Source: Acidobacteriota bacterium (lineage in GTDB: Bacteria; Acidobacteriota; Thermoanaerobaculia; Multivoradales; JAGPDF01). Taken from it: a stretch of DNA of 64,000 nt. Both the position numbers and the translations under genes were made by a program. Positions 34,324-55,649 of the stretch are shown here, one piece after another. A model generated the notes under the pieces. That model saw nothing but the letters and a program-made list of their open reading frames with translations, did no database searches and was not told where the DNA came from. The stretch lies in NCBI GenBank assembly GCA_014584695.1, contig JACTMI010000004.1:128006-192005 (forward strand), written 5' to 3'. Every line of letters starts with the position of its first letter. Position 1 is the first letter of the stretch.

Positions 34324-34688
34324 TCGCCGCCTGACGCCTGATCGCGCGCCGCCGGACCTTCGGGACCGGCGGCGCGCGGTGTTTTCGGCCGCCTCCCGCT
34401 CCGCCGGGATGGATCGCCCCACCGCGCCTGCCTGAACGACGAGGGACCAATCGCGCTTGACGGGGGCGAGGCGGCGGTCCGCGGACCGGGAGTCCCACTC
34501 GTCGCCCTCCGAGCGCTGGCTCCCGCCTTGCTCCCGGAGCTCCTCACACGCGAACCCGTGAAGCCACGCCGGCCCCAGCGGGCGGCCGGAGAGAGCGCCA
34601 GCAAAGAGCTCAGGGGCCAACGGACCGCGCGACCGCCCGCCGCATGGCGCGGCCGGGCGAACCGCTCGCAGCGGGAAGGAGCATCGGC

Positions 34689-37532
34689 ATGAGAAGCAGG
34701 ATCTCGTGGTACCGAAGCGCCGCGATCCTCGGCGCGGCCTGGCTGGTCGGCGCGGCGGCAGCCGTCGGCCAGGTGCAGTCGGGCAATGTCTACGGCACCG
34801 TCAGGGACGCCGCCGGCGCCCCTCTTCCGGGCGTCGTCGTCACCATGACCGGCGGCGGCGCTCCCGCCGTCCAGGTCTCGGACGCGCAGGGGACGTTCCG
34901 CGTTCTCGGCCTCAGCCCCGGGACCTATCAGCTCGTCGCCGCGCTGGACGGCTTCGCCAACGTCGAGTACCCGAGCGTGACCGTCGCCGTCGGCCGCAAC
35001 ACTTCGCTCGAGATCACGATGCAGTCGGCGATCGAGGAGACGATCACGGTCACGGCCGAGTCGCCGCTGCTCGATTCGCGGCGCATCACCGCGGGCGCCC
35101 AGGTCAGCCAGGTGGAGCTCGAGAAGATCCCGAGCGCGCGCGATCCCTGGGTGATCCTGCAAAGCACGCCGGGCGTGCTCGTCGACCGGGTCAACGTCGG
35201 CGGCAACGAATCGGGCCAGCAGTCGACCTACACCGGCCCCGGCGACACCGGCGCCAACGCCGCCTGGTCGATCGACGGCGTCGAGATCACGGACATCGGC
35301 GCCATCGGCTCGTCGCCTTCGTACTACGACTTCGACGCCTTCGAGGAGATGCAGGTGACGAGCTGCGCACCGGCGGCGTCGGGATGAACATGGTGACCAA
35401 GCGCGGCACCAACCAGTGGCGCGGCTCGGCCCGGCTGCTGCGCGCCGAAGACTCCTGGCAGTCGGACCTCGACTTCGACCGCGGCGACCTGGCGCCGAAC
35501 CAGCCCGCCTTCGCCCAGGGCAACCGGATCGTCAGCGTCGAGGACTACGGCGCCGAGCTCGGCGGCCCGATCGTCAAGGACAAGCTGTGGTTCTGGGCCT
35601 CTTACGGCGAGAACGACATCCGCCTGCTGACGGTGCTCGACGTGCCGGACAACACGCTGCTCGGCGACCTTCTTCTACTCGAACAACGAGAAGATCAAGA
35701 TCGGGCGCAACGCCTCGCCGACGCGGCCGCCGGAAACGACTTGGAATCAGGGCGGTTGGGGCGGCGGTCCGACGGTCGTCAAGGTCGAGGACACGCAGGT
35801 CTTCTCCTCGAGCTTCTTCGCCTCGGTGATGTACTCCGAATCCAATGGCAGCTTCCAGTTGACGCCGCAGGGCGGCACCTCGCCGACCCAGAACAAGGCG
35901 TCGCTGGACGAGAACTTCGTGTGGGGAAACACCTTCCTGTTCTATGGCAGCAAGCGGCCGCAGACCCAAGCGAAGGCCGACGGGTCCTACTTCTTCGGCA
36001 CCGGCAACCTGAGCCACGAGCTGAAGTTCGGCACCAGCTACCGCGAGGGCGAGATCCGGTCGCTGACCCGCTGGCCGGGCGGCGGCATCGACCTGAACTT
36101 CTACGTCGCCAACTACGGCTACGCCTACAACATCGTCCAGCTGACCAACGATGGCATCTGGAACTACGACGTCGAGTACACGAACGCCTACGTCCAGGAC
36201 ACCATCACGACCGGCAACCTGACCGTGAACTTCGGCGCCCGCTACGACCTCCAGGGCGGAACGCAGCGGGCCGGAGTCGCGGCGGCGAATCCGACTTTTC
36301 CGGCGCTCATTCCGGAGCGTCGCTTCGCGGGCCAGGACATCGGCTTCGAGTGGTCGACGATCAGCCCGCGCCTGGGTCTGACCTACAACGTCGCCGGCGG
36401 CAACCGGACGCTGCTGCGGGCGAGCTATGCCCGCTTCGCCGATCAGCTCTCCGGCCTGGCCGCCGGCTGGACCTACCCCCTCTATCCCTACACTTCGGTC
36501 TACACCTACTACGACGACCGCAACGGCGACGGCCATTCACAGGGCAGCGAGATCATCCCCGACGTGCTGTTCAACTCCGGCAACTACGACCCGGCCAACC
36601 CGTCCCTGATCCTGTTCTCTTCGGCCGTCGACCCGGGACTCGACGCGCCGGTGACCGACGAGCTCCTGTTCGCGGTCGAGCATGCCCTCCTGCCGGAGTT
36701 CGTGGTCGGGCTCAACCTGACTTACCGGCTGTCGACCGACCTGCTGGAGCAGGAGCGCCTGGTCTTCGACGGCGACCCCTACTCGGCGACCAACGTGCGC
36801 AGCGTCGGCCGCGTCCACCGGCGCGACGACTACGTCCAGACCGGCACCGTCACGGTGACGCTGCCGGGCGAGTCGACGCCACGACAGGTGCCGGTCTACG
36901 GACTGCGGCCGGGGGTCGGAACCCGCAACGGCAACGTCCTGGGCGTCCAGCAGGGGGGCTATCTGACCAACGGCGACCGGGAGCAGGAGTACCTGGGAGT
37001 CTCGTTCACGTTCAACAAGCGGCTGTCGAACCGCTGGATGGCGCGCGGCAACTTCACCTGGTCGGACTGGGAGTGGAAAGTGCCGGAGAGCGAGCGGGAG
37101 GATCCGAACCAGCTGTTCGGCGGTGGCAACCGGGACGGCGACGCGGTGGTGACCTGCGTCGGCACCGGTTCGGGGGCCAAGGCCGGGGTGTGCATCAACA
37201 GCAGCTGGTCGTACAGCCTCAACGAGGGCTACGCGATGCCCTATTGGGTTCGCGCGAGCCTAGCGGGCGTCAGTGGCGCCTACTACCTGAACATCACCGA
37301 CCGGCCGGATCAGTTCCGGACCGACGACGTGCACACGCTCGATCTCCGGGTCGAGAAGGAGCTGACGTTCGATCGCTTCGGCCTCACGCTCGGGATCGAC
37401 GCGTTCAACGTCTTCAACTCCGGCACGGTCCTGCAGCGGGAGCTGCGGCTCAATCAGGGACAGGGAGACTGGGTGCGCGAGGTGCTCTCGCCCCGGGTCT
37501 TCCGGGTGGGCGCGCGGCTCAGCTTCAACTAG
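34689..37532 (+). pseudogene. TonB-dependent-receptor-like outer-membrane protein, copy 2 (tandem paralog), disrupted at the same two positions
   Basis: GGAAGGAG RBS and signal peptide MRSRISWYRSAAILGAAWLVGAAAAVGQ; frame switches at about 35361 and about 35668; otherwise collinear with copy 1 with high amino-acid identity. Confidence 0.6.
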
Positions 37533-37647: not shown

Positions 37648-38592
37648 ATGAATTCCACCAACCTGTCGCGTACGGCGGTGGCGCTGCTGCTCGGGCTGGC
37701 GGTGCTCCTGCCGGCCACCGGGACCGCGCAGGACTGGAAAGGGCGTGGCCGCATCCAGGGCGAGGTGACCGACGAGCGAGGAGCGCCCGTCGCCGCGGCC
37801 AGCGTGACGCTGCGTTGGGGCGTGGCGCCCGACCAGGGACCGGCGCCGCTCGCCACCGACAGGAAGGGCAAGTGGTCCTTTCTGGGGCTGGTCGGCGGGG
37901 CCTGGATCGTGCTCGTCGAGGCGCCGGGCTTCGTGCCTCAGGAGGGATCGGTCCAGGTCAACGAATTCGGCGCGGTGCCGCCGATCAAGATGAAGCTGCG
38001 GCCGGCGGAGGCGAGCGCCGCGCCGGTCGATCCCGCAGTCGCGGCGATCGAGGAGGGCAACCGCCTCCTGGGCGAGGGGCGCCACGCGGAGGCGCGGGCC
38101 GCCTACGAGCGCTCGCTCGCCGATCTGCCGGCGGCGAGCCGTCCGGCGGTGATGCGGGCCGTCGCGCGCACCTGGTTCGACGGCGGCGATGCGGCGCGCG
38201 CGATCACCGTGCTCGAAGAGAGCCTGGCGCTCGCGCCGGACGACGCCGAGTCGCTGCGCTTGATCGTCACCCTGCTGGTCGCGGCCGGCCGGGAGGCCGA
38301 CGCCCGCGCCTACATGGCCCGTCTCCCCGCCGGTGCCGAGGTCGACGCCGACACGCTGCTCAACCTGGGCATCGATCTCTACAACCAGAACCGGCTCGAG
38401 GAGGCGCTGGCCGAGTTCGACCGCGTCGTGACGCAGCAGCCGACGCTCCCCGATGCCTATTACTACCGGGGCCTCGCGCGCCTCGGGCTGGGGCGCGGCG
38501 AAGAGGCCAAGGCCGACTTCCAGAAGCTGCTCGACCTCGACCCGAGCCACGCCAAGGCCGAGGATTGCCGACAGTTCCTCTCCTCGCTCTGA
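37648..38592 (+). CDS. secreted protein with an N-terminal CarboxypepD_reg-like domain and C-terminal TPR repeats
   Basis: Signal peptide; GRIQGEVTDERGAPVAAASVTL prealbumin-like unit; TPR-like helices (AYYYRGLARLGLGRGEEAKADFQKLLDLDP). Confidence 0.6.
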   Translation: MNSTNLSRTAVALLLGLAVLLPATGTAQDWKGRGRIQGEVTDERGAPVAAASVTLRWGVAPDQGPAPLATDRKGKWSFLGLVGGAWIVLVEAPGFVPQEGSVQVNEFGAVPPIKMKLRPAEASAAPVDPAVAAIEEGNRLLGEGRHAEARAAYERSLADLPAASRPAVMRAVARTWFDGGDAARAITVLEESLALAPDDAESLRLIVTLLVAAGREADARAYMARLPAGAEVDADTLLNLGIDLYNQNRLEEALAEFDRVVTQQPTLPDAYYYRGLARLGLGRGEEAKADFQKLLDLDPSHAKAEDCRQFLSSL

Positions 38593-38618
38593 CCGCGAGG
38601 CGACGAGGCCGGGGGCGC

Positions 38619-40706
38619 GTGCGTCGCGCAGGCTCTCCGCTGCCGCTCGCCGGTCTGCTCGTCGCGCTCGCGGCCGCCGGTGCTTGTGACTCCGGGCGCG
38701 AGGCGGCGGCGCCGCCACCCCCGGCGGCGCGCCCGGACGTCGTGCTGATCACCGTCGATACGCTGCGCTGGGACGCGGTCGGATTCGCCGGCAACTCGCG
38801 AGTGCGGACGCCGACGCTCGACCGGCTCGCGGTCGCCGGCAGGGTCTTCACCGACGCGCACGCCCACAACGTCGTCACGCTGCCGTCCCACGTCAACATC
38901 CTGACCGGGCTCTATCCCTTCCAGCACGGCGTCCGCGACAACGCCGGCTTCGTGCTCGGCGAGGAGGTTCCGACGCTGGCGACGCTCTTGTCGGCCGCGG
39001 GTTACGCCACCGGGGCCTTCGTCGCGGCCTACCCGCTCGATCGGCGCTACGGACTAGCCCGCGGCTTCGACCTCTACGACGACCGATTCCGCCGCGGCAC
39101 CGACCCGGCCGCCTTCGTCATCGCCGAGCGGCGCGGCGACGAGGTCGTGGCCAATGCGCTCGGCTGGTGGCGCTCGGCGGCCGGACGCCCGCGGTTTCTC
39201 TGGCTCCACCTCTACGATCCCCACGCCGCCTACGAGCCGCCCGAGCCGTTCGCCTCGGAGTATCGCGATCACCCCTATCTCGGCGAGGTTGCGGCGACGG
39301 ACGCCTTCCTGACGCCGTTGCTCGCGCCGCACCTCGACGGCGCCGAACCGCCGGCCCTCGTCCTGTTCACTTCGGACCACGGCGAAGCGCTGGGCGCGCA
39401 CGGCGAGCTGACCCATGGACTGTTCGCTTACGAACCGACGCTCAAGGTTCCGCTCGTCCTCTGGGGTCCGGGCGTCGAGCCCGGGCGCGACGGCCGCGCG
39501 GCGCGCCACGTCGACATCGTCCCCACGGTCCTCGAGGCGCTCGCGCTCGCGCCGCCGGGGCGACTGCCCGGCCACTCGCTCCTCGGACCCCCGGGCGCCG
39601 GGGTCGAGACCTACTTCGAGGCCCTGACCACCGCCCTGCACCGCGGCTGGGCGCCGCTCTTCGGCGTCATCCGCGACGGCGTCAAGGTGGTCGATCTGCC
39701 GGAGCCCGAGCTCTACCGTCTGGTCGAGGATCCCGAGGAGCGAGAAAACCGCTACGGCGCCGAGGCCGCGCTCGCGCGCGAGCTGCTGGCGCGGCGACCG
39801 GCCACCGCGTGGCCGCCGCAGCGGCCGGCGGCGAGCGGCGACGAGGAGGCGGCCCGGCTGCGCAGCCTCGGGTACCTGGTGGGCTCGGCGCCGCTGCGCG
39901 AGGCGTTCGGTCCCGAGGACGACCCGAAGCGGTTGGTCGGTCTCGACCGCCAGATCCACCTGGCGATCGATCACTACTCACGCGGCAGGTTCGCCGAGGC
40001 GGCGCGCCTCGGCGCCGCGATCGCGCGCGATCGCCCGGGGATGGCCGACGGCTACACGATGGGCGCGCTCGCGCTGCGTCAGCTGGAGCGCCACGAGGAG
40101 GCGATCGCGCTGCTCGCGACCGGCCGCGAGCGGACCGGCGGCGACGAGTCGGTGGTGCGCGCCCTCGGGCTCGCGCTCGCCGAGACCGGTCGCGCCGGCC
40201 GGGCGGTGGAGCTGCTTTCCCCCCTCGAGACGACGGGCCAACCCGAGACGCTGCGCGCCCTGGCGACCGCGCTCGCCGACGCGGGCGAGCCCGAGCGGGC
40301 GCGGCGGGTCCTCGACCGCGCGCTGCGGGAGCTGCCGGACGACCCGCGGGCGATCGAGCTCGCTGGCGTCATCGCCCTGCGCGACGGCCGTCCCGAGGAG
40401 GCGCGTCGTCACCTCGAACGGGCGCTCGAGCTCAACGACGAGCTGGCGACCGCCTGGAACTCGCTCGGCGTCGCGCTCTATCCGATCGAGGGTCCACGCG
40501 CCGCTCTGGGTGCCTGGCAGCGGGCGGTCGAGCTCGATCCGCGGCAGTTCGACGCGCTGTTCAACCTCGGGCTCGTGGCGGCGAGCGTCGGCGAACGAGA
40601 GCTGGCGCGGCGCGCGCTCGAGCAGTTCCTGCGCACCGCCCCGCCGGAACGCTACGCGCCAGACTTCGCGCGCGCCCGCGGACTGCTCGTCGAGGTGGCG
40701 GGATGA
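38619..40706 (+). CDS. lipoprotein: sulfatase-fold (alkaline-phosphatase superfamily) domain with Thr at the nucleophile position, plus C-terminal TPR domain (paralog 1)
   Basis: GTG start; lipobox-like LAAAGAC; VLITVDTLRWD metal-site motif; TLPSHVNILTGLYP in place of the C/SxPxR formylglycine motif; TSDHGE..HG; TPR repeats after about residue 430. Confidence 0.7.
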   Translation: MRRAGSPLPLAGLLVALAAAGACDSGREAAAPPPPAARPDVVLITVDTLRWDAVGFAGNSRVRTPTLDRLAVAGRVFTDAHAHNVVTLPSHVNILTGLYPFQHGVRDNAGFVLGEEVPTLATLLSAAGYATGAFVAAYPLDRRYGLARGFDLYDDRFRRGTDPAAFVIAERRGDEVVANALGWWRSAAGRPRFLWLHLYDPHAAYEPPEPFASEYRDHPYLGEVAATDAFLTPLLAPHLDGAEPPALVLFTSDHGEALGAHGELTHGLFAYEPTLKVPLVLWGPGVEPGRDGRAARHVDIVPTVLEALALAPPGRLPGHSLLGPPGAGVETYFEALTTALHRGWAPLFGVIRDGVKVVDLPEPELYRLVEDPEERENRYGAEAALARELLARRPATAWPPQRPAASGDEEAARLRSLGYLVGSAPLREAFGPEDDPKRLVGLDRQIHLAIDHYSRGRFAEAARLGAAIARDRPGMADGYTMGALALRQLERHEEAIALLATGRERTGGDESVVRALGLALAETGRAGRAVELLSPLETTGQPETLRALATALADAGEPERARRVLDRALRELPDDPRAIELAGVIALRDGRPEEARRHLERALELNDELATAWNSLGVALYPIEGPRAALGAWQRAVELDPRQFDALFNLGLVAASVGERELARRALEQFLRTAPPERYAPDFARARGLLVEVAG

Positions 40707-42988
40707 GCCCCGCGCCGCGGCGGAGCGGGCTCCTGGTGGCGGTGCTGCTGGCGGCCGTCGCCAGCGGCTGCCGGCCGCAGGAGGACGCGCTCCGCTTCCC
40801 GCGGGCGCCGATCGTCCTGATCTCGATCGACACGCTGCGGGCGGATCGTCTGCCGGCCTACGGCTACGATGGGGTCGAAACGCCGTCACTCGACGCCCTG
40901 GCGAGCGAATCGTTGCTGTTCGAGAGCGCCTGGAGCCACTACCCGCTGACCCTGCCCTCGCACACCTCGATGCTTTCCGGCCTGCTGCCGCCCCGTCACG
41001 GCGTCCGCGACAACGCGGGCTACGAGCTGGAGGCGGGCATCCGGCCCTGGCTCCCCGAGCGGCTGCGCGCGGCCGGGTACGCCACGGGCGCGTTCGTCTC
41101 GAGCTACGTGCTGCGCGGCGCGACCGGACTCGCGCGCGGCTTCGACCACTACGATGACGAGATCGAGCGCCCGGCGGGCGCCAGCCTCGACGCGGCGCAG
41201 CGCGAGGGTCTGGCGACCGTGGCGCGCGCCGCGGCCTGGGTGCGGGAACGGAGCGAGACGCCGTTCTTCCTCTTCCTCCATCTCTACGAGCCGCACACGC
41301 CCTACGCTCCGCCGGAGCCCTTCGCTTCACGCTACGCGGATCCCTATGACGGCGAAATCGCCACGGTCGACCTGGTCGTCGGCGGCTTTCTCGAGGAGCT
41401 GCGGCGCCTCGGCCTCTACGAGCGGTCGATCCTGGTCTTCACCGCCGATCACGGCGAGGGGTTGGGCGACCACGGCGAGCAGCAGCACGGCGTCTTCCTC
41501 TACCCGAGCACGACCCACGTACCGTTGCTGCTCAGGCTCCCCGGCGCGCGCCGCGGGGGCGAGCGGATCGCGGACGCCGTGGCGCTCGCCGATCTCGCCC
41601 CGACGCTCGCCGGCCTGGCCGGGATCGAGCTCGGCGCGAGCGCCGACGGCAGCTCGTTGCTCGCGGCGAAGGCGGGTGACGCCGCCCAACGCCGGATCTA
41701 CGCCGAGACCTACTACCCGCGCCTCCACTTCGGCTGGAGTGACCTCAAGGCGTTGCACGACGCGCGCTGGAGCTTCGTCGAGGCCCCCGAGCCGGAGCTC
41801 TACGATCGTCTCGCCGATCCGCGGCTCGAGACCAACCTGGTCGAGCGCGAGCGGCGCCTGTTCGCCGCGCGGCGCGCGGAGGTGCGCGAGATCGACCGGC
41901 CGCTCGCTGCCCCCGCCGCTGCGGACGAGGAGACGGCGGCGCGGCTGGCCGCGCTCGGCTACCTCTCGGGCGGCTCACGGACGCTCGAAGGGCCGCTGCC
42001 GGATCCGAAGAGCCAGCGGCACCTGATCGGCGACATCGAAAACGGCTTCCTCGCCTTCGGCGAACGCCGCTTCACCGCGGCGGCCGCGCACTTCGAGCGC
42101 GTGCTCGCCGAAAACGATGGCATGTTCGACATTTGGAGCTTCCTCGCCCGCAGCCGCAAGGAGAGCGGCGACCTCGACGGCGCCGCGCGCGCCTGGGAGC
42201 GGGCGCTCGAGCTCTCGGCGGATCCGGGCGTGGCGCTCGCCGCGGCCAACGCGCTGCTCGAGCTGGGGCGCCACGCCGAAGCGCGGGCCCGCGCCGAGCT
42301 CGGGCTGGTCGGCCAGCCGCAGCCGGCGCACGATCTGCTGGTCCGGATCGCGCTCGCCGTGGGCGACGGCGCCGCGGCCGACCGCTGGTCCACCGCCGCG
42401 CTCGCCGCCGGCGTCGCGAGCGAGGGGATCCGCCGCCGGCTGGCGCTCGCCGCGGCCGAGTCGGGGCGGCCAGCGGAGGCCGCGGCGCTGCTCGACCCGG
42501 TGCGCGAGTCGGCCACCGCCGCGACGCTCGATGTGCTCGGGCTGGCGCTGTCGGACCTCGGCCGGCACGCGGAAGGGGCCGAGGTGCTCGCCCGCGCCGT
42601 CGCGCTCGAGCCGGAGGCGGCGAAGTGGCGGGAGGACCTGGGCACCGTGCTGCTGCGCGCGGGCCGCCTCGAGGAGGCACGCGCCGCGCTCGACCGCGCG
42701 GTGGCGCTCGACCGGCGCCGCGCCGGGGCCTGGACGGCGCTCGGCGTCGCCCGCTACCAGGCGGGCGACGCGCGCGGCGCGCTCGCGGCCTGGCGGACGG
42801 CGGTCGAAGTCGACCCGCGGGCATTCGACGCCCTCTACAACCTCGGTCTCGCCGCCGCGGCGGCGGGGGAGCCGGAGATGGCCCGGCGCGCGCTCGACCG
42901 CTTCCTCGCCACGGCGCCTCCGGCGCGCTACGGCGGAGACTTCCCGCGCGCGCGCGCCGCGCTGGCCCAGCTCGGAGGCGGCGGATGA
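40703..42988 (+). CDS. lipoprotein: sulfatase-fold domain (Thr nucleophile) plus TPR (paralog 2)
   Basis: ATGA overlap; lipobox LLAAVASGC; ISIDTLRADR, TLPSHTSMLSGLLP, TADHGEGLGDHGEQQHG; long C-terminal TPR array. Confidence 0.75.
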   Translation: MSPAPRRSGLLVAVLLAAVASGCRPQEDALRFPRAPIVLISIDTLRADRLPAYGYDGVETPSLDALASESLLFESAWSHYPLTLPSHTSMLSGLLPPRHGVRDNAGYELEAGIRPWLPERLRAAGYATGAFVSSYVLRGATGLARGFDHYDDEIERPAGASLDAAQREGLATVARAAAWVRERSETPFFLFLHLYEPHTPYAPPEPFASRYADPYDGEIATVDLVVGGFLEELRRLGLYERSILVFTADHGEGLGDHGEQQHGVFLYPSTTHVPLLLRLPGARRGGERIADAVALADLAPTLAGLAGIELGASADGSSLLAAKAGDAAQRRIYAETYYPRLHFGWSDLKALHDARWSFVEAPEPELYDRLADPRLETNLVERERRLFAARRAEVREIDRPLAAPAAADEETAARLAALGYLSGGSRTLEGPLPDPKSQRHLIGDIENGFLAFGERRFTAAAAHFERVLAENDGMFDIWSFLARSRKESGDLDGAARAWERALELSADPGVALAAANALLELGRHAEARARAELGLVGQPQPAHDLLVRIALAVGDGAAADRWSTAALAAGVASEGIRRRLALAAAESGRPAEAAALLDPVRESATAATLDVLGLALSDLGRHAEGAEVLARAVALEPEAAKWREDLGTVLLRAGRLEEARAALDRAVALDRRRAGAWTALGVARYQAGDARGALAAWRTAVEVDPRAFDALYNLGLAAAAAGEPEMARRALDRFLATAPPARYGGDFPRARAALAQLGGGG

Positions 42989-45144
42989 ACCGCTCGCGCT
43001 CGCTCGTGCTCGCCGCGCTCGCGCTCGTGGGCGCCGCCGGCTGCCGCCCCGGCGGCGGCGCCGCCGGCCCCTTCCCCGGCGCGCCGGTCGTGGTCATCTC
43101 GATCGACACGCTGCGCTCGGACCGGCTGCCGGTCTACGGCTACGACCGGGTCGCGACGCCCGCCATCGACGCGCTGGCGCGCGACGGGATCGTCTTCGAG
43201 CGCGCCTACACCCACGTCCCCCTGACCTTGCCGGCCCACCTCTCGATGTTCACCGGGCTGCTGCCGGGCGATCACGGCGTGCGCGACAACCTCGGCTACC
43301 GCTTCGACGCCGAGCGGCATCCCTATCTGCCACGGCTCTTCGCCGCGGCGGGCTACGCGACGGGCGGGGCGATCTCGGCCTACGTCCTGCGCGCCGAGAC
43401 CGGCTTCGCCGCCGGCTTCGAGTTCTTCGAAGGGGCCGTCGACCTGCGCTCCGGCTTGACCCTCGGCCGCAGTCAGCGCCCGTGCGGTGAGACGCTGGCC
43501 GCGTCCCGCGACTGGCTGCGGCGGGTGGCCGCGGGCCGTTTCTTCTACTTCGGCCACTTCTACGAGCCGCACACACCCTGGGAGGCGCCCGAGCCCTTCC
43601 GTAGCCGCTACGGTGACCCCTACGACGCCGAGATCGCCGCCGCCGACGCCTGCGTCGGCGAGCTGGTCGAGGAGCTGCGGCGGCTCGACGTTCTCGACCG
43701 CGCGATCGTGGTCCTGACGTCGGACCACGGCGAGGGGCTCGGTGACCACGGCGAGCAGGAGCACGGCATCCTGCTCTATCGGGAAGCTCTGCAGGTGCCG
43801 CTGGTGCTGCGCCTGCCGGGGGCGGCGCGGGCGGGGACGCGGATCTCGGCGCCGGCTCAGCTCCTCGACCTGGCGCCGACGCTGCTCCGGCTCACCGCCC
43901 TCGAGCCGCCCGCCGGGCTGGCGGGATCCCACCTGCTCGAGGCGCTGCCGGAGGAGCGGCCGATCTACGCCGAGACCTTCTACCCCCGGTTGCACATGGG
44001 ATGGAGCGAGTTGACGGCGGTGATCGCCGGGCGCTGGCACGGCATCTTCGGTCCCGACCCCGAGCTCTACGACCTGATCGAGGATCCCGCCGAGCGGCGC
44101 AACCTGCGCGACGGCGAGCGGCGCCGGTTCGCGGAGCTGCGCGAGCAGGCCGCGACCTTCGAGCGTCCGCTCGCGGCTCCGGCGGCCGAGGACGCGGAGA
44201 CGGCGGCGAAGCTCGCGGCGCTCGGCTACCTCGGCGGCGCGGCCACCGGGGCGACGACGGGGCCGCTGCCGGACCCGAAGTCGAAGCTGCCTTCACTGCG
44301 CGAGTTCGGACGCGCGCTGCAGGATCTGACCGAGCGCCAGGACTACCGCGGCGCGGCGGCACGGCTCGAACGGGTGCTGGCCGAGAACCCGCGCATGGTC
44401 GATGCGTGGGACAGCCTCGGGCTGGCGCTCCACCGCCTCGGGCGCTCGACGGAGGCGCTGGCCGCCTACGAGAAGGCGATGGAGATCTCGGGGGGAACGC
44501 CGCACGTGGCGCTCGCGGTCGGCCAGGTGCTGCTCGATCTCGGCCGCGGCGACGAAGCGCGGGCGCACGCCGAGCTGGCGCTGGCGGCGAGCCCGGCTGC
44601 GGCGCACAGCCTGGTGGCGCAGGTCGATCTCGCGGCCGGGCGGTTGGAGGCCGCCGAGGCGGCGGCGCGCCGGGCGCTCGCGGCGCGCGGCTCGCGCATC
44701 GGGCCGCTGCTCGTGCTCGCCCAGGTCCAGCGGGCGCAGGGGGAGCTCGAAGCGGCGCTGGCGACCTGCGAATCGGCGCTCGCCGACCTCGCCAAGATGC
44801 AGGGCGAGCAGAAGTTCGCCGGGCTCTACTTCGTGCACGGGGACCTGCTGGCGCGGCTCGACCGTCCGCACGACGCGGTCGCGAGCTTGCGGCGCGAGAT
44901 CGCGCTCTTCCCGGCCGAGCCTCGCGCCTACGCGGCGCTCGCGGCGCTCTACGCCGCGCACGGTCAGCCGGACGACGCGGTGGGGACGCTGCGCGCCCTG
45001 GTCGAGGGCAACCCGGACCTGCCGGTCGCCTACGCCGAGGCGGTCAAGACGCTGCGCGTCCTCGGCGATCCGCAGGGCGCCGCCGGCCTGCTCGCCGCCG
45101 CCCGCCGCCGCTTCCCCGACGAGCCCGCGCTGACCGGGCTGTAA
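42985..45144 (+). CDS. lipoprotein: sulfatase-fold domain (Thr nucleophile) plus TPR (paralog 3)
   Basis: ATGA overlap; lipobox ALVGAAGC; ISIDTLRSDR, TLPAHLSMFTGLLP, TSDHGEGLGDHGEQEHG; C-terminal TPR array. Confidence 0.75.
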   Translation: MNRSRSLVLAALALVGAAGCRPGGGAAGPFPGAPVVVISIDTLRSDRLPVYGYDRVATPAIDALARDGIVFERAYTHVPLTLPAHLSMFTGLLPGDHGVRDNLGYRFDAERHPYLPRLFAAAGYATGGAISAYVLRAETGFAAGFEFFEGAVDLRSGLTLGRSQRPCGETLAASRDWLRRVAAGRFFYFGHFYEPHTPWEAPEPFRSRYGDPYDAEIAAADACVGELVEELRRLDVLDRAIVVLTSDHGEGLGDHGEQEHGILLYREALQVPLVLRLPGAARAGTRISAPAQLLDLAPTLLRLTALEPPAGLAGSHLLEALPEERPIYAETFYPRLHMGWSELTAVIAGRWHGIFGPDPELYDLIEDPAERRNLRDGERRRFAELREQAATFERPLAAPAAEDAETAAKLAALGYLGGAATGATTGPLPDPKSKLPSLREFGRALQDLTERQDYRGAAARLERVLAENPRMVDAWDSLGLALHRLGRSTEALAAYEKAMEISGGTPHVALAVGQVLLDLGRGDEARAHAELALAASPAAAHSLVAQVDLAAGRLEAAEAAARRALAARGSRIGPLLVLAQVQRAQGELEAALATCESALADLAKMQGEQKFAGLYFVHGDLLARLDRPHDAVASLRREIALFPAEPRAYAALAALYAAHGQPDDAVGTLRALVEGNPDLPVAYAEAVKTLRVLGDPQGAAGLLAAARRRFPDEPALTGL

Positions 45145-45146
45145 GG

Positions 45147-46697
45147 TCAGAAGACGAGCCGCAGCTTGGCCCGGTCGATCTTGCCGAGGTGGGTGCGGGG
45201 GAAGTCGTCGGTGAGGAAGCGAATGGAGCGCGGCGTCTTGTAGGGCTGGAGGGAGCGGGCGACGTGGTCCTGGAGCTCCTGGACGAGATCCTCGCTCGCC
45301 TCGTGACCGGGGCGCAGGACGACGACGGCGTGCGGCTTGACCAGCCCTTCCTCGTTGGCGACGGCGACCACGGCGCATTCGGCCACCGCGGGATGGGCGG
45401 CGAGGCAGCTCTCGACCTCGGCGGGCGAGAACCACTTGCCGCCCACCTTGAGCACGTCGTCGCCCCGCCCCTGGTAGGTGAAGTAGCCGTCGGGCGAGCG
45501 GGTGACGAGGTCGCCGGTCACCACCCACTCGCCGCGAAAGGTCGCCAGGCTCTTGTCGTGCTCGCGGAAGTAGCCCGCCGCGCGCGCCCCGCCGCGCACC
45601 CAGAGCAGGCCGGTCTCGCCGTCGGGGAGCTCTTCGCCGGCGTCGTCGCGCACCCGCACCTCGAATCCGGGCACGACCTCGCCGAGCGTGCCCGGGCGAA
45701 TCCGCCCCGGGCGATTGGTCAGGAAGACGTGCCACTGCTCGGCGGTGCCGAGACCGTCCAGCAGCTCGACGCCGAAGGTCTCGACGAAGCGCTGGTGGAG
45801 CGGCACGGGCAGCGCCTCGCCGGCCGAGGTCACGAGGCGCAGCGAGGCGAGGTCGGCCGCCGCCGCCTCGGGATGGGAGACCATCTGCTGGACCATGGTC
45901 GGCACGTTGACGAGCAGCGTCGGGCGGTATCGCCGAATCGCCGCGAAGACCGCCTCCGCGGTAGCGCGCTCGGGGAAGAGGCAGGCGGTGGCGCCGACCG
46001 AGAAGGGGAAGAAGAGGTTCGAGCCGAGCGCGTAGCCGAAGAAGAGCTTGGGTACGGCGAGCGTGACGTCCTCCGGGCCGAGCCCGAGGATCCCCTGGCC
46101 GTAGGCGACGGTGGTGAAGGCGTAGGAGCGGTGACTCTGGACGACCGCCTTCGGGCGGCCGGTGGTGCCGCCCGAGAAGAGCATCACCGCCGGGTCGTCG
46201 CGGTGGGTGCGGACGTTCTCGAAGCGCTCGGCGACCGTGCGGCCGAGCTCCTCGAACGACGGGCAGCCGGGGGCGACGTCGCCGACGGTCAAGAGCGCGA
46301 GGCGCTCGCGCGCGAGACCGATGGCGCCGGCCCAGCGCGCCACCTGCGCGCCGTCGACGATCGCCCAACGGGGCCGCAGGTAGTCGATCAGCGCCGCCAG
46401 GGCCTCGGCGGGCAGCTCCGGGTTGACCGGCACGGCGACGGCACCGGCCTTGAGGGTGCCGAACAGGGCGCCGACCCACTCGGCGCCGTCCGGGAGCGCC
46501 AACAGCAGCCGCTCCTCGGGGCGCACGCCGAGCCCCGCCAGAACGGTCGCGAAGCGGTCGGCGAGTCCGAGCACCTGTCGGTAGGTGTGGCTCTCGCCCG
46601 CGAGCCGGAGCGCGACGCGGTCGCCGCGCCCCTCGGCGACCCGCGCGTCGAGCAGCCACTCGGCGAGGTTGAACTCCTCCGGCGCAACGAAGGTCAT
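45147..46697 (-). CDS. AMP-dependent aryl-CoA ligase (benzoate/4-hydroxybenzoate-CoA ligase family)
   Basis: AMP-binding motifs LFSGGTTGRPKAV, GYFREHD, TGDLVTRSPDGYFTYQGRGDDVLKVGGKW; GGAGGA RBS; 516 aa, the real 3' part of an 881-aa track ORF. Confidence 0.8.
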   Translation of the reverse strand: MTFVAPEEFNLAEWLLDARVAEGRGDRVALRLAGESHTYRQVLGLADRFATVLAGLGVRPEERLLLALPDGAEWVGALFGTLKAGAVAVPVNPELPAEALAALIDYLRPRWAIVDGAQVARWAGAIGLARERLALLTVGDVAPGCPSFEELGRTVAERFENVRTHRDDPAVMLFSGGTTGRPKAVVQSHRSYAFTTVAYGQGILGLGPEDVTLAVPKLFFGYALGSNLFFPFSVGATACLFPERATAEAVFAAIRRYRPTLLVNVPTMVQQMVSHPEAAAADLASLRLVTSAGEALPVPLHQRFVETFGVELLDGLGTAEQWHVFLTNRPGRIRPGTLGEVVPGFEVRVRDDAGEELPDGETGLLWVRGGARAAGYFREHDKSLATFRGEWVVTGDLVTRSPDGYFTYQGRGDDVLKVGGKWFSPAEVESCLAAHPAVAECAVVAVANEEGLVKPHAVVVLRPGHEASEDLVQELQDHVARSLQPYKTPRSIRFLTDDFPRTHLGKIDRAKLRLVF

Positions 46698-46804
46698 GCG
46701 CGGTCCTCCACGAAGCGGGAAGGCGACATTGTAACGGGTCGGAACACCCATCAGCGAGGTCGCATTCGAGCCGCCCACCCACGGTAGCGTCGGACCGGCC
46801 CTCG

Positions 46805-47091
46805 GATCGCGTCCCCGCAGCGCAGCGCGAGGGGTCCCCGCTCCTCCAGAAAAGAAATCCAGATACCGCGGGGTGTCGCGGGCGCGAGGAGACCCGAGCC
46901 GAGGGCCGGTTCGACGCGGCCGACGCCGACATCGCTGCCCGAGACATCGCGCGAAGGAAGCGTCAGTGGCCTGCGCCGCGCCGGGACGTGACTCGCGCCG
47001 GCTCTCCTCGCGCCCGCGACACCCCACGGTTGGATTGGATACTGGTGGCGTGGGGACCCCTCGCGCTGCGCTGCGGGGAGACGTCGCGATC
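46805..47091. repeat. about 287-bp imperfect palindromic element with nested inverted repeats
   Basis: Outer IR gatcgcg..tccccgcagcgcagcgcgaggggtcccc (46805-46839) matches the reverse complement of 47052-47091; inner IR ggggtgtcgcgggcgcgaggaga (46870-46892) matches the reverse complement of 47003-47025; an unrelated centre of about 110 bp. Confidence 0.5.
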
Positions 47092-47146
47092 CACGCCCCG
47101 GCGCTCTCGTCGAGGAGCGGTTCGACGCGGCGCAGCGCGCGGCTAG

Positions 47147-48367
47147 TCAGGGCTCGACGGCGGCCCAGTTCTCGGTGGTGCCGGTCTCGAAGTGATCCCA
47201 GAACAGAAAGCCGGGATCGGGCACGTGCATGACGATGCAGTGGAGGACGCCCGCGGAGCCGACGATCGCGCTGCCGTCGATGGGGACGATCTGGGAGCCG
47301 GGAAAAGCCTGGGCGAAGACGTCGAGCGCCTGCTGGTTCTCGGTCGGATAGGCGCTGTACTGCGGCACCAGGACGAGCCGGTTGAGGATCACGGCGTTGG
47401 TGTAGGTGTAGTGGGTGGACGCGGCGCGCCAGCCCGGAGTGCGGAAGACCGAGTAGCCGAGCGCGGTCAGCTCGGCGACGGCGGCCTCGGTGATCGCCCT
47501 CGGCACGCCGCCCCCCTGACTCGCCGCGTACTCGCCGACGATCACCCGGCGGTCGCTCGCCGGCAGCAGCCACATGTCGATGTGCTGGGTCGAGTCGTAG
47601 CTGGTGGGGAAGCCGGGCCAGATCGTGAGCTCGAGCGCCTCGTAGTCCGCGAAGAGCTGCTCGACCTGGCTGGCGGAAAGCGTCGGATTCTCGCCGAGGA
47701 CGAGCTCGGTCATGAACGCGCGACCGTCGCCGAAGAGGTGGAAGTTGCCGCCGCCGTGGACGAGCGGCAGGTCGTAGTCGACGTGGCCCCATGCCGCGGC
47801 GACGGCGTCCGGGATCAGATCGTCGTTCGGGCGCGGCCGGTTGTAGACGTGATCGACGCTCGCCGCGGCACCGTCCTCGGTGATGAAGCGCGGGCCGTAG
47901 TCGCGGATCCAGACCGAGTCGGTCGGCGCGATCAGGAACGAGACCTGCGCCATGGCGGCTCCGGCGCCGGTGAGCGTCGTCGTCGCCGATTGCTGCTGCG
48001 CCGCGCCGGAGACCACGATCCAGACGCGCGCTTCCGGGTCACCCGTGGTCACCGCGACGGTCATCGCGGTCAGGATCGAGTTGAAGCTCCCCCAGCGGAT
48101 CAGCAGGCCGAGGTTCCGGTCGTACTCGGCGGGCGTCGCGACCAGCCCGGAGGGCGGCGCCGTCGGCGCCAGGAGCCCGGGCGCCGGCGGCACCCGTTCA
48201 CCGGGCGCGAGCCCGCGCGGCAGCGGCTCCAGGTCGTCGTCCTCGATCGCCGCGAGGACCTCCGGCGGCGGGACGCGGGCAGTCTGCGCCCGCAGCGGCG
48301 CGGCGCCCCCGACCAGTGCCAGCAGGGCCGCGAGGGTGAGCGTTCGATTGCGATCGAAAAGGCACAT
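47147..48367 (-). CDS. secreted agmatine deiminase / Porphyromonas-type peptidylarginine deiminase family protein
   Basis: Signal peptide; WIRDYGP, HVDYDLPLVHGGGNFH, C-terminal GVLHCIVMHVP (catalytic Cys) typical of the PAD_porph/AguA fold. Confidence 0.7.
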   Translation of the reverse strand: MCLFDRNRTLTLAALLALVGGAAPLRAQTARVPPPEVLAAIEDDDLEPLPRGLAPGERVPPAPGLLAPTAPPSGLVATPAEYDRNLGLLIRWGSFNSILTAMTVAVTTGDPEARVWIVVSGAAQQQSATTTLTGAGAAMAQVSFLIAPTDSVWIRDYGPRFITEDGAAASVDHVYNRPRPNDDLIPDAVAAAWGHVDYDLPLVHGGGNFHLFGDGRAFMTELVLGENPTLSASQVEQLFADYEALELTIWPGFPTSYDSTQHIDMWLLPASDRRVIVGEYAASQGGGVPRAITEAAVAELTALGYSVFRTPGWRAASTHYTYTNAVILNRLVLVPQYSAYPTENQQALDVFAQAFPGSQIVPIDGSAIVGSAGVLHCIVMHVPDPGFLFWDHFETGTTENWAAVEP

Positions 48368-54117: not shown

Positions 54118-54193
54118 GGGCCGCTAGCTCAATTGGTAGAGCAGCAGACTCTTAATCTGCGGGTTGTAGGTTCGATTCCTACGCGGCTCACCA
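54118..54193 (+). tRNA. tRNA-Lys (anticodon CTT), CCA encoded
   Basis: 76 nt; clover-leaf folds by hand: acceptor gggccgc/gcggctc, anticodon stem gcaga/tctgc, loop cTCTTaa, T-loop ttcgatt. Confidence 0.9.
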
Positions 54194-54266
54194 ACCCTCC
54201 CCCCTCTCGAAGCCCCTCCGGCAGGCGCCGGGGCGATGCAAGCTCCCGCCGCGCGGGGCGCGATCG

Positions 54267-54357
<91 letters not shown>

Positions 54358-54380: not shown

Positions 54381-55649
54381 ATGAGCGTCGTCCTCGCCGT
54401 CGAAGAGATCGGCCCCTGCCGCAAGCAGCTGAAGATCGAGGTTCCGGGTCCGGCCGTCGAGGCCGAAACCGATCGGGTCACCCGGGAGTTCGGCAAGAAG
54501 GCCAAGCTGCCGGGCTTCCGCAAGGGCAAGGTGCCGGAGTCCCTGGTCCGGCGCCACTTCGGACCCGACATCCGGCAGGAGGTGCTCGAGCGCCTGGTGC
54601 CGCGCTACTGGCGGCAGGCGGCGGCGGAGAAGGGGATCGAACCGCTGATGCCGCCCGAAGTGCGCGATGTCCATTTCCACGAGGGCGAGCCCATCACCTT
54701 CTCGGCCACGGTCGAGGTCCGGCCCGAGATCGAGCTGCGCAACTACCAGGACTTCGCCCTGCCCACCCCGCCGGTCGAGCCGACCGCCGAGGAGATCGCC
54801 GGTGCCTTGGCCGATTTGCGCCGCAACCACGCCGACTGGGAGCCGGCGGGTCGGGGGGCGGCCACCGGGGACCGGGTGCGCATCGAAATCGCCGAGCTCG
54901 GCCCCGACGGGCCCGGAGCGGCCAACGCCGCCGAGCTCGAGGTCGGCAATGCGCGCTACTGGGACGAGCTGTCGGCCGCCGTCACCGGGCTCGCCGCCGG
55001 CCAGAACGGCAGCTTCACCCGCCGCGAAGGCGACGGCGAGGCGGCGAGCGAGAAGAGCTACCAGGTGCGCATCGTCGACGTCCTGGCGCCGAAGCTGCCC
55101 GAGCTCGACGACGAGCTGGCGCGCCGTTTCGGGCGCTACCAGTCGGCCGCGGAGCTCGAGGCCGACGTCGTCCGCCGAATCCGGTCCGCCAAGGAGCAAG
55201 GGGCGCGCCAGCAGCGCGAGACCGCGCTGCTCGACCAGTTGACGGAGCGCCACCCGATCGAGCTGCCCGAGGGCGTCGTGCGCCACGAGGTCGAAGAGCT
55301 GCTGCGCGACTACGCCGAAGGGCTGTCGCGCCAGGGCGTCGACCTCGAGCGGGCGCAGATCGACTGGCAGAAGATGGGCGAGGAGGCGCGCCCGCACGCC
55401 GAGCGCCGGGTCAAGGCGCGGCTGCTGCTCGACGCCATCGCCGACCGGGAGCAGGTCGAGGTCACCGAGCCGGAGTTCGAGCACTCGCTGGCGCTCTTGG
55501 CGCGAACTCAGGGGGTGGCGACCCACGCCCTGCGCCACAAGCTCGACGAGACCGGACAGCTGGCGGGGCTTCGGGGCAGAATGAGGCGCGAGAAGCTGCT
55601 GCGCCGGCTGCTGGGGGAGGGCCCGCCGGGAGCCGGCGAGGCGAAGTGA
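54381..55649 (+). CDS. tig: trigger factor
   Basis: 422 aa; N-terminal ribosome-binding region with the GFRKGKVP signature; conserved position upstream of clpP-clpX. Confidence 0.9.

What the first reader, a model, noticed from the sequence alone, without database searches (positions are those of the whole stretch)
46805..47091. 287-bp imperfect palindromic element with nested inverted repeats
Two IR pairs are nested. The outer pair is about 35 nt (gatcgcgtccccgcagcgcagcgcgaggggtcccc versus its reverse complement at 47052-47091). The inner pair is about 23 nt (ggggtgtcgcgggcgcgaggaga versus 47003-47025). They flank a non-palindromic centre of about 110 bp, and the arms between the two IRs are only loosely related. 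The element lies between the 3' end of the deiminase-like gene and the promoter of the aryl-CoA ligase gene. It could be a MITE-like mobile remnant. It could also be two inverted copies of a structured RNA or REP unit, or a large regulatory cruciform. The 119-aa ORF in the track (46873-47232) lies inside it and is probably spurious.
Basis: seen in the sequence. Interest (0 to 1): 0.55.

Follow-up and report, generated by a model that had tools for sequence, protein, structure and literature searches.

The report
Inverted pair of long hairpin repeats
The 287-bp palindrome is real: it is two inverted copies of a roughly 140-base hairpin-forming repeat, lying between two genes of an uncultured Acidobacteriota bacterium, at a spot where closely related strains have gained, lost or collapsed DNA.

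Summary
Both inverted-repeat pairs are exact at the stated coordinates, and the imperfect palindrome extends to 46766-47125 (RNA fold -247 kcal/mol, z = -13).

New finding: each half is itself a hairpin of about 140 nt (unit A 46782-46922, unit B 46972-47104).
- The two units share 100%-identical core arms of 28 and 23 nt.
- Their loops have diverged.
- Their outer stems differ in sequence but stay paired (7 compensatory pairs, none broken).
- Unit A carries a REP-style GTAG tag.

The pair fills the 449-bp spacer between a PAD/agmatine-deiminase-like gene and a benzoate-CoA-ligase-family gene in a Thermoanaerobaculia-like genome.

Strains 94-98% identical carry other alleles here:
- unit A alone;
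- a 244-bp collapse to a weak 45-nt hairpin;
- a 3.4-kb gene-bearing segment with unit A at both ends, which assembles as a cycle;
- a short "empty-site" paralogue;
- one more partial copy beside a 790-aa gene.

No copy was found elsewhere in the window, in 1.3 Mb of relatives' loci, or in any public collection scanned.

Best reading: an inverted dimer of a low-copy, REP/REPIN-like hairpin repeat that provokes rearrangement. Mobility and a terminator role are inferred. This is a new variant of a known kind, of moderate interest.

The parts
46766..47125 (.).
   Evidence: Alignment of the spacer with its own reverse complement; I1 and I2; folds
46782..46922 (.). Hairpin unit A (~140 nt), next to the ligase promoter
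   Evidence: Folds alone at -96 kcal/mol, z = -6.4. CM R1 scores it 157 bits. Conserved in L125, in L023 (45/45 nt) and in L024
46972..47104 (.). Hairpin unit B, an inverted copy of unit A with a different outer stem
   Evidence: Folds alone at -83 kcal/mol, z = -3.6. CM R1 scores it 147 bits. Its outer 5' arm is confirmed by Logan contigs L001-L010
46784..46787 (+). GTAG tetranucleotide directly 5' of the outer stem of unit A (a REP-style tag). The matching position of unit B reads AGAG (47104-47107, minus strand)
   Evidence: Read from the sequence. Kept in the L125, L133-L138 and motif2 copies. The tag concept is from PMC3733652
46812..46839 (.). Outer core arm in unit A (28 nt, TCCCCGCAGCGCAGCGCGAGGGGTCCCC)
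47052..47079 (.). Outer core arm in unit B (perfect reverse complement of 46812-46839)
46870..46892 (.). Inner core arm in unit A (23 nt, GGGGTGTCGCGGGCGCGAGGAGA)
47003..47025 (.). Inner core arm in unit B (perfect reverse complement of 46870-46892)
46840..46869 (.). Loop/top of unit A. It evolves fast: about 35% different from the loop of B, and 4 of 30 nt differ from a strain that is 98% identical overall
47026..47051 (.). Loop/top of unit B
46923..46971 (.). Spacer between the two units. It is conserved (91%) next to unit A in the P0242-type strain, where homology to the window ends at about 46969
46907..46920 (+). 14-nt direct repeat CGGTTCGACGCGGC, copy 1 (right end of unit A)
   Evidence: D3; junction in L023
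47118..47131 (+). 14-nt direct repeat, copy 2 (outside unit B). The two copies bracket the segment that is missing in L023
   Evidence: D3
46915..47137 (.). About 223 bp (unit B plus spacer) absent in the 94%-identical strain L023, where unit A follows the stop codon after 3 nt
46813..47056 (.). About 244 bp absent in the P0242/P0243-type strains (98% identical). The junction lies in a GGGG microhomology and leaves a weak 45-nt hairpin, 'H0'
   Evidence: all 14 contigs shown carry it, several sequencing projects; H0 fold z = 0.16
45147..46697 (-). Benzoate-CoA-ligase-family gene (516 aa), downstream neighbour
   Evidence: AMP-binding, AMP-binding_C; names given by the sources
47147..48367 (-). 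PAD_porph / agmatine-deiminase-family gene (406 aa), last gene of the upstream block
46728..46733 (-). TACAAT, a -10-like hexamer upstream of the ligase gene (TAGAAT in the 98% strain). GGAGGA ribosome-binding site at 46704-46709
   Evidence: Read from the sequence. The consensus scan found no full promoter, so this is inference only
46873..47232 (+). 119-aa ORF, judged spurious
   Evidence: No Pfam match. It lies inside the palindrome and runs antisense into the deiminase-like gene

Best explanation
The element is an inverted dimer of a GC-rich hairpin repeat unit of about 140 nt. It sits in the 449-bp spacer between the PAD-like gene and the benzoate-CoA-ligase gene of an uncultured Thermoanaerobaculia-like (Acidobacteriota) bacterium.

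Anatomy of a unit:
- two core arms (28 and 23 nt) that are identical in both units;
- a fast-evolving loop;
- a unit-specific outer stem that remains base-paired.
Unit A starts with a REP-like GTAG tag. The two units can fold separately, or together as one 340-nt hairpin or cruciform.

The unit belongs to a small, lineage-restricted set of related hairpin repeats (long units, a collapsed form and a short 'empty' form). In architecture this set resembles REP / REPIN / BIME-type elements.

How it most likely works:
- As DNA, hairpin extrusion on single strands promotes slippage, template switching and recombination between copies. That would make this spacer a hot spot of deletion, duplication and gene gain or loss.
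- Mobilisation by a RAYT/TIRYT-type Y1 transposase is possible but not shown.
- As RNA, the hairpins lie at the 3' end of the PAD transcript, upstream of the ligase promoter. They would act as a U-tract-less terminator or exonuclease block.

Shown: the anatomy, the compensatory pairing, the allelic variants and the extra copies. Inferred: the mechanism of instability, mobility, and any RNA role.
For: Anatomy:
- Exact cores and whole-palindrome statistics.
- Each half is its own hairpin, z = -6.4 and -3.6.
- In the alignment of A with inverted B, all 39 predicted pairs are kept and 7 of them are kept through changes on both sides.
- With a third unit from L125, 98.3% of cells are paired, 0 of 500 shuffles reach this, and slid controls drop to 28-55%.

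Heterogeneous conservation: the cores are 100% identical while the loops differ by about 35%.

GTAG tag: it sits directly before the outer stem in unit A and in the L125, L133-L138 and motif2 copies. REPs are defined by such a tag and commonly form inverted dimers that fold separately or as one large stem-loop (PMC3733652; REPIN definition in PMC3116915 and PMC3337134).

Alleles at this locus:
- L023 (94% DNA identity) has unit A directly after the stop codon, 45/45 nt identical.
- P0242/P0243 strains (98.2%) have the 244-bp collapse at a GGGG microhomology.
- NCBI contig L125 has a 124-nt terminal overlap equal to unit A, enclosing 3,382 bp that include a 790-aa gene.
- The 41-nt right part of unit A has two entries and two exits in k=31 assembly graphs.
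- A short paralogue has the two flanks 13 nt apart.
- A further partial copy lies after the P0245 version of the 790-aa gene, in a different upstream context, in a sample that also holds the window strain.
- More distant relatives (75% aa) have two genes, or an M48 peptidase gene, in place of the palindrome.

Short-read contigs from dozens of samples stop at the element on both sides.
Against: - Only one site was found in 64 kb.
- No match was found in 1.3 Mb of relatives' loci.
- Scans of public collections were all negative: the outer core against GTDB representative genomes; both cores against JGI metagenomes and IMG/VR; the whole element against plasmids and phages.
- No predicted protein overlaps another copy.
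- The units are 3-5 times longer than REPs.
- Unit B has AGAG, not GTAG.
- No transposase or integrase was found among the 30 window genes scanned, and the neighbouring genes annotated in the Logan contigs carry no such domain either.
- No target-site duplication is evident.
- Between the window and L125, the two substitutions in the outer stem of unit A break pairs rather than compensate.
- All extra copies seen lie at or next to this locus or beside the 790-aa gene, so genome-wide dispersal is not shown.
- There is no U-tract, so no canonical intrinsic terminator.
- The interior of unit B is seen only in the window assembly.
Confidence: 0.55

Rival explanations
1. A one-off, locus-bound structural palindrome. 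Nested fold-back (inverted) duplications arose during repair or replication at a deletion or rearrangement junction. The perfect cores are kept by quasi-palindrome template-switch correction. There is no mobility and no family. Any terminator effect is incidental.
For: The element sits exactly where relatives have other genes, so it is at a synteny break. No copy was found outside this neighbourhood in any search. The deletion variants end in microhomologies (GGGG, GCCGCG), as expected for palindrome instability.
Against: The loops are about 35% diverged while the cores are identical, so B is not a recent copy of A. Compensated, unit-specific outer stems are present. Related copies occur beside the 790-aa gene in a different upstream context, and a short 'empty' paralogue exists. 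The GTAG tag is conserved in all copies of the A type.
Confidence: 0.25
2. The hairpin units are recombination sites of a gene-cassette system, either integron attC-like or cut by an HUH/Y1 enzyme. The 3,382-bp segment (790-aa gene plus truncated 272-aa gene plus one unit) is a cassette that excises as a circle and reintegrates at the 41-nt shared sequence. The window allele is a site left after cassette loss.
For: L125 is terminally redundant by 124 nt, equal to unit A, at k=124. This proves the junction from unit A back to the start of the cassette, so the segment is a circle or a tandem array. In the assembly graphs the 41-nt shared block has two entries and two exits. The cassette's upstream part has lower GC, 56-62%. 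PMC3733652 reports a model in which circular intermediates carry REP units.
Against: A tandem duplication, or RecA recombination between direct repeats, gives the same cycle. The attC boxes are not present (GTTCGAC and GTCGGAC against GTTRRRY and RYYYAAC). The two window units are inverted, unlike cassette arrays. No integrase or Y1 transposase was seen. The cassette proteins have no mobility domain.
Confidence: 0.12
3. A dedicated cis-regulatory RNA (a riboswitch-like leader or attenuator of the ligase gene) or a small-RNA gene.
For: The structure is strong and conserved, and it lies upstream of the ligase gene.
Against: No Rfam family matches; the best hit is a generic hairpin model far below threshold. 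The hairpins lie upstream of the -10-like box, not in the leader. Close strains delete unit B or most of the palindrome. The fold is equally good on both strands. The two units are inverted, so only one of them can present a given strand.
Confidence: 0.05
4. An assembly artefact (a fold-back chimera) in the window's source assembly.
For: Short-read assemblies never cross the element, and the interior of unit B is seen only in the window.
Against: The palindrome is imperfect, with indels and diverged loops, whereas fold-back chimeras are perfect. Both flanks, and the first 20-28 nt of the outer core on the unit B side, are reproduced in independent contigs. L001 continues with the B-specific base. 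The interior of unit A is reproduced in NCBI contig L125.
Confidence: 0.03

Closest known systems
REP dimers / REPINs / BIMEs (GTAG-tagged repetitive extragenic palindromes, mobilised by RAYT Y1 transposases; PMC3733652, PMC3116915, PMC3337134)
   Same: Extragenic position downstream of a gene. An imperfect palindrome preceded by GTAG. Two units in inverted orientation with the tags outside, which can fold separately or as one large stem-loop. A heterodimer whose partners differ in stem and loop. Strain-to-strain presence/absence. Association with other small palindromes and with rearrangements.
   Different: The units are about 140 nt, not 20-40 nt. Unit B lacks the GTAG. Copy number looks very low (one site in 64 kb, none in public collections). 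No RAYT has been seen. The conserved part is the inner stem rather than the whole short palindrome.
Self-complementary TIR repeat families linked to TIRYT tyrosine transposases, described among others in Acidobacteria (PMC3733652)
   Same: Same phylum. Longer, partly or wholly self-complementary repeats, moderately abundant, arranged as dimers or clusters. Unit B contains GGGGAGAC, which fits the reported GGGGWSAS motif.
   Different: No TIRYT gene is flanked by these units in the available sequence. The motif is absent from unit A and could be chance. The published TIR sequences could not be compared, because the figures are not held.
Palindromic MITEs such as ERIC/IRU, Correia/NEMIS and RUP
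   Same: Imperfect palindromes of 100-300 bp in intergenic regions, co-transcribed with neighbouring genes, variable between strains.
   Different: No target-site duplication, no conserved terminal inverted repeats (the ends are the variable part here), no partner IS, and no multi-copy family shown.
Integron attC sites / gene cassettes
   Same: An imperfect palindrome of up to about 140 nt at the end of a gene. One unit per 3.4-kb gene-bearing segment, which assembles as a cycle.
   Different: The R'' and R' boxes are not present. The units in the window are inverted rather than in the same orientation. No IntI is present. The cassette has a long upstream region.
Long DNA palindromes / quasi-palindromes as hot spots of slippage and template switching (established knowledge from E. 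coli genetics; my own knowledge, not checked here)
   Same: The deletion alleles end in 4-6-nt microhomologies and remove one arm or the interior. Perfect stretches within an otherwise imperfect palindrome are what template-switch correction would produce.
   Different: That is a generic property of DNA, not a family. It does not explain the GTAG tag, the short paralogue or the copy beside the 790-aa gene.

Membership tests
REP / REPIN | Imperfect palindrome with a conserved GTAG (or CGTC) tetranucleotide at one end | tested here: met
   GTAG at 46784-46787 is followed at once by the stem CGTCGGACCGG... It is kept in L125, L133-L138 and motif2. Unit B has AGAG instead, so the feature is met for unit A only.
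REP / REPIN | Unit length 20-40 nt (REP); two inverted REPs plus a spacer form one hairpin (REPIN) | tested here: not met
   The units are about 133-141 nt. Only the short paralogue motif2 (36 nt after GTAG) is in range. The inverted-dimer architecture itself is present.
REP / REPIN | Many dispersed extragenic copies in one genome | tested here: inconclusive
   One site in the 64-kb window. Extra copies were seen only at this locus or beside the 790-aa gene in related strains. The rest of the genome was not available, and short-read assemblies break at the element.
REP / REPIN | A cognate RAYT (Y1/HUH transposase) gene in the genome, usually flanked by REPs | not testable with these tools
   None among the 30 window genes scanned with Pfam or the neighbours annotated in Logan contigs. 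The whole genome could not be reached.
MITE | Conserved terminal inverted repeats flanked by a target-site duplication | tested here: inconclusive
   The arms are inverted repeats, but the most conserved parts are internal and the ends vary between units. No direct repeat flanks 46766/47125. A 14-nt direct repeat brackets unit B plus spacer (D3), but it is equally explained by a slippage deletion in L023.
MITE | Multiple copies and a parent IS with the same ends | not testable with these tools
   No hits in GTDB representatives, JGI metagenomes, IMG/VR, plasmids or phages.
Integron attC | R'' (RYYYAAC) and R' (GTTRRRY) boxes at the ends; sites in the same orientation; intI nearby | tested here: not met
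   The ends read GTCGGAC and GTTCGAC, compared by eye against consensus boxes recalled from my own knowledge. The window units are inverted. No integrase was found in the window genes scanned.
Intrinsic (Rho-independent) terminator | GC-rich hairpin followed by a U-tract | tested here: not met
   The scan found no terminator-like site in 46400-47400. The sequences after units B and A lack T-runs.
Any Rfam RNA family | Score at or above the family's gathering threshold | tested here: not met
   The best hit was a plant miRNA hairpin model at 29.7 bits against a threshold of 90. Only two tRNAs in the whole window reach gathering thresholds.

The most novel reading that the evidence does not exclude
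The ~140-nt GTAG-tagged hairpins would be the recombination sites of a so far undescribed cassette-shuffling system in Thermoanaerobaculia, possibly driven by an HUH/Y1 enzyme acting on single-stranded hairpins. The 3,382-bp unit (790-aa gene plus one hairpin) would excise as a circle and integrate at the 41-nt shared sequence. The window's palindrome would be the footprint of two such sites left head-to-head after cassette turnover. This would make the PAD-ligase spacer an integron-like landing pad that lacks integron hallmarks.
Probability: 0.12. Interest if true: 0.75.

Novelty: new variant of a known kind. Interest (0 to 1): 0.42.

Why it matters
If the reading is right, REP/REPIN-type hairpin repeats also occur in an uncultured Acidobacteriota lineage, in an unusually long (~140 nt), low-copy form, and they mark a spot where strains 94-98% identical differ by whole genes.

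There are two practical points. First, such hairpins systematically break short-read metagenome assemblies: every one of the Logan contigs shown, from many samples, that reaches the full palindrome stops there. Elements of this kind, and the variable genes next to them, are therefore under-represented in genomes assembled from metagenomes. Second, the cycle-forming 3.4-kb segment gives a concrete, testable case of hairpin-bounded gene turnover.

If the reading is wrong and this is a one-off palindrome, it is an ordinary product of replication errors with little wider meaning.

Tried and rejected
- **Other copies in the window.** blastn with word size 7, 3-mismatch pattern searches, and covariance model R1 with filters off found only the two units.
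- **Exact-core scans of public collections.** GTDB representative genomes (outer core), JGI metagenomes (both cores), IMG/VR (both cores), and blastn against plasmids and phages all gave zero hits. Caveat: the species is not among the GTDB representatives (best ligase match 75%), and JGI holds no relative closer than about 76%.
- **Six-frame translation of the element.** Searched against 5.8 billion protein clusters, and one frame against 1.84 billion representatives. No ORF overlaps another copy.
- **Model R1 and blastn over 1.3 Mb of relatives' loci.** Only the truncated unit A of L023 was found.
- **Remnants of the relatives' extra genes.** No trace of the M48 peptidase or the 418-aa gene in the spacer or the window.
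- **Rfam.** Nothing.
- **Promoter/terminator scan.** Nothing.
- **Generic scan for GTAG followed by a palindrome in the window.** 21 hits against about 10 in Markov shuffles, mostly inside genes. This is not evidence for a REP family.
- **Short alleles.** H0 and motif2 fold no better than shuffles.
- **Pfam on 30 further window genes and on the cassette proteins.** No mobility genes.
- **Artefact hypothesis.** Rejected, because the palindrome is imperfect and its flanks and unit A are reproduced independently.
- **attC, riboswitch and small-RNA readings.** Rejected on the tests listed above.

Full report

Yes. The spacer between the two minus-strand genes runs from 46698 to 47146 (449 bp). It is one of the largest gaps in a 50-gene map of the window.

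- The outer inverted repeat (46805-39 against 47052-91) is identical apart from a 5-nt insertion. Its perfect part is 28 nt.
- The inner repeat (46870-92 against 47003-25) is a perfect 23 nt.
- Dinucleotide shuffles expect 0.00 and 0.02 such matches.
- Aligning the spacer with its own reverse complement shows an imperfect palindrome from 46766 to 47125.
- The region folds at about -245 kcal/mol as RNA on either strand (z = -13.3 and -12.4) and at -147 kcal/mol as DNA (z = -10.6).
- Nothing else of this size exists in the 64 kb.

**2. Anatomy**

The new point is that each half is itself a hairpin.

- Unit A (46782-46922) folds alone at -96 kcal/mol (z = -6.4).
- Unit B (46972-47104) folds alone at -83 kcal/mol (z = -3.6).
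- B is an inverted copy of A.

Aligned in the same sense, the two units share the two core arms without a single difference. Their loops are only about 65% alike, with indels. Their outer stems differ in sequence. All 39 pairs of the consensus hairpin are kept in both units, and 7 of them are kept through changes on both sides.

With a third unit from another strain, 98.3% of cells pair. No shuffle out of 500 reaches this, and sliding the partners by 1-3 columns drops pairing to 28-55%. The caveat is that the structure was derived from these same sequences. The two substitutions that separate the window's unit A from the L125 unit A in the outer stem break pairs rather than compensate.

Unit A begins with GTAG directly before its stem. 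The equivalent position of unit B reads AGAG.

**3. Surroundings and organism**

- The upstream gene (47147-48367, minus) is a PAD_porph / agmatine-deiminase-family protein. It closes a block of enoyl-CoA hydratase, thiolase, glutamine amidotransferase, an unknown gene and a second hydratase.
- The downstream gene (45147-46697, minus) is a benzoate-CoA-ligase-family protein.
- The names that sources give to homologues place the organism in Acidobacteriota, Thermoanaerobaculia. The closest GTDB representative reaches only 75% on the ligase.
- No Rfam family, tRNA, consensus promoter or U-tract terminator lies in the spacer.
- A TACAAT box (TAGAAT in a sister strain) and a GGAGGA site lie between unit A and the ligase start codon.
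- The 119-aa ORF has no family and is antisense to the end of the deiminase-like gene, so I judge it spurious.
- Thirty further window genes are housekeeping or metabolic. None is a transposase or integrase.

**4. Related sequences**

*More distant relatives.* In L019 (75% aa identity on the PAD protein), a 418-aa gene and an M48 peptidase gene lie between the PAD and ligase genes. L034 also has the peptidase upstream of the ligase. No remnant of either gene is in the window. The palindrome therefore sits at a synteny break.

*Close relatives.* These are present only as short-read (Logan) contigs and one NCBI contig. They show at least four other states of the locus.

- (a) Window-type samples. 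Every contig shown ends inside or at the edge of the outer core on both sides. L001 continues with the B-specific base.
- (b) L023 (94% DNA identity). The stop codon is followed after 3 nt by unit A, 45/45 nt identical. About 223 bp (unit B plus spacer) are absent, and the junction lies in a GCCGCG microhomology.
- (c) P0242 and P0243 strains (98.2% identity). All 14 contigs shown, from several projects, carry ...GCGCGAGGGG|ACGCGATCC... This is the window sequence minus about 244 bp (46813-47056), joined in a GGGG microhomology. It leaves a 45-nt hairpin that folds no better than chance.
- (d) In the same strains, the 41 nt GGGGACGCGATCC...TACCGTGGGTG (the right part of unit A) has two entries and two exits in the assembly graphs.
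  - The entries are the collapsed form on the PAD side and the interior of a full unit A.
  - The exits are the ligase gene and a segment carrying a 790-aa gene (weak CarboxypepD_reg match).
  - Contig ends fall exactly at these branch points.
  - The far end of that segment runs into the spacer and the left half of unit A.
- (e) NCBI contig CAADGN010000058.1 (L125, 3,506 nt). It has a 124-nt terminal overlap made of unit A. So at k=124 the path 'unit A, 790-aa segment, spacer, unit A' closes on itself. This means either a 3,382-bp circle or direct copies of unit A around the segment.
- (f) Inside that segment lies a short paralogue, 'motif2', in which the left and right flanks of the window's palindrome are only 13 nt apart. 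It again starts with GTAG.
- (g) A second version of the 790-aa gene (P0245, 91.6% DNA identity) has a different upstream context: a complete 272-aa gene and another gene. It is followed 45 nt after its stop codon by the GTAG flank and at least 53 nt of a unit, after which the contigs break. One of these samples also holds the window-type strain. The window has no such gene within 17-46 kb, which suggests, but does not prove, a second locus.

**5. Searches for a wider family: all negative**

- The window itself, including covariance model R1 with filters off.
- 1.3 Mb of 80 relatives' loci.
- GTDB representatives, JGI metagenomes, IMG/VR, plasmids and phages.
- Six-frame translations against 5.8 billion protein clusters, and one frame against 1.84 billion representatives.

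Two caveats apply. The species is absent from GTDB representatives and from JGI. Short-read assemblies cannot cross the hairpins, so copies are systematically lost from public assemblies.

**6. Interpretation**

*Shown:*
- The element is an inverted dimer of a long hairpin repeat with identical cores, free loops and compensated outer stems.
- Unit A is kept in strains down to 94% identity.
- The locus is hypervariable. Its deletion alleles end in microhomologies, and a gene-bearing segment is bounded by unit A.
- Related long, collapsed and short forms exist.

*Inferred:*
- The hairpins themselves cause this variability, through slippage, template switching and recombination between copies.
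- They may be substrates of a Y1 (RAYT/TIRYT-type) transposase, as GTAG-tagged REPs are (PMC3733652; REPIN papers).
- In RNA they end or stabilise the PAD transcript and insulate the ligase promoter.

The strict identity of the cores beside diverged loops cannot be neutral drift from a duplication. It needs either selection on sequence (for example a protein-binding site) or repeated correction between arms.

**7. Comparison with known families**

The architecture is closest to REP dimers / REPINs: a GTAG tag, an inverted heterodimer, folding singly or jointly, a position downstream of a gene, and strain variability. Membership is not established.

- Unit length fails the definition.
- Copy number is unresolved.
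- A RAYT could not be looked for.
- MITE criteria (conserved ends, target-site duplication) are not met or are ambiguous.
- attC boxes, an intrinsic-terminator U-tract and Rfam thresholds are not met.

I therefore file it as working like a REP/REPIN-type recombinogenic hairpin repeat, and as a new long, low-copy variant rather than a proven member.

**8. Rivals**

| Reading | Confidence |
|---|---|
| One-off palindrome made by fold-back duplication at a rearrangement junction | 0.25 |
| Cassette recombination sites with a circular intermediate | 0.12 |
| Regulatory RNA | 0.05 |
| Assembly artefact | 0.03 |

The evidence for and against each is given in its own section of this report.

**9. Verdict**

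This is a real and unusual structure. Mobility is plausible but unproven. The most interesting lead is the cycle-forming 3.4-kb segment bounded by the unit. Interest is 0.42, and the novelty class is a new variant of a known kind.

Noticed in passing
window 47147-47209 (minus strand); L019:7264-7320: The PAD-like protein ends in ...FWDHFETGTTENWAAVEP. The unrelated 418-aa DUF1554-like protein of relative L019 ends in ...HWDHFESGDLRRWSSAP. This shared C-terminal motif in two secreted-looking proteins could be a sorting tag.
   Followed up: no
window 37648-45144: Three tandem paralogous sulfatase plus TPR genes (38742-40706, 40703-42988, 42985-45144), about 68% identical to each other at the DNA level. 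They follow a CarboxypepD_reg/TPR gene and lie convergent with the ligase gene.
   Followed up: partly
window 24404-25683 versus L019:11564-13236: In relative L019 the ligase gene is followed directly by EamA and 4HBT genes. In the window, 4HBT-EamA lie about 20 kb away. The block 25.7-45.1 kb (unknown large proteins, transglutaminase/TPR, CarboxypepD_reg proteins, sulfatases) therefore looks inserted or rearranged beside the ligase.
   Followed up: no
L125 (NCBI CAADGN010000058.1), ~232-863; L134:391-1209: The 272-aa gene upstream of the 790-aa gene has clearly lower GC (56-62%) than the genome (about 72%). It is truncated in the copy that sits at the PAD-ligase locus. The two versions of the 790-aa gene differ by 8.4% while the strains differ by under 2%.
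   Followed up: partly
L125, about 50-160 nt downstream of the 790-aa gene stop: A cluster of small hairpins lies there: motif2 (GTAG-CGTTGGG...CCCGACG) and a GTGGGTC...GACCCAC hairpin between motif2 and the next unit A.
   Followed up: partly
window 46805-46816 and 47051-47060; ends of L001-L018, L024-L033, L115-L138: Every k=31 Logan contig shown that reaches the full palindrome, from many public sequencing runs, stops at its edges within a few bases. L001 shows a T-to-C miscall in the stem. Some breaks fit assembly-graph branch points exactly; others look like loss of read coverage in the hairpin.
   Followed up: partly
window 54118-54355: tRNA-Lys(CTT) and tRNA-Leu(TAG) lie in the 487-bp gap upstream of the trigger factor gene (54381-55649).
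   Followed up: yes
window 31166-31563, 34324-34643, 35388-35825: Three other long intergenic gaps (320-438 bp) lie among CarboxypepD_reg-domain genes and genes without any Pfam match. No inverted repeat or Rfam match was found in them.
   Followed up: no
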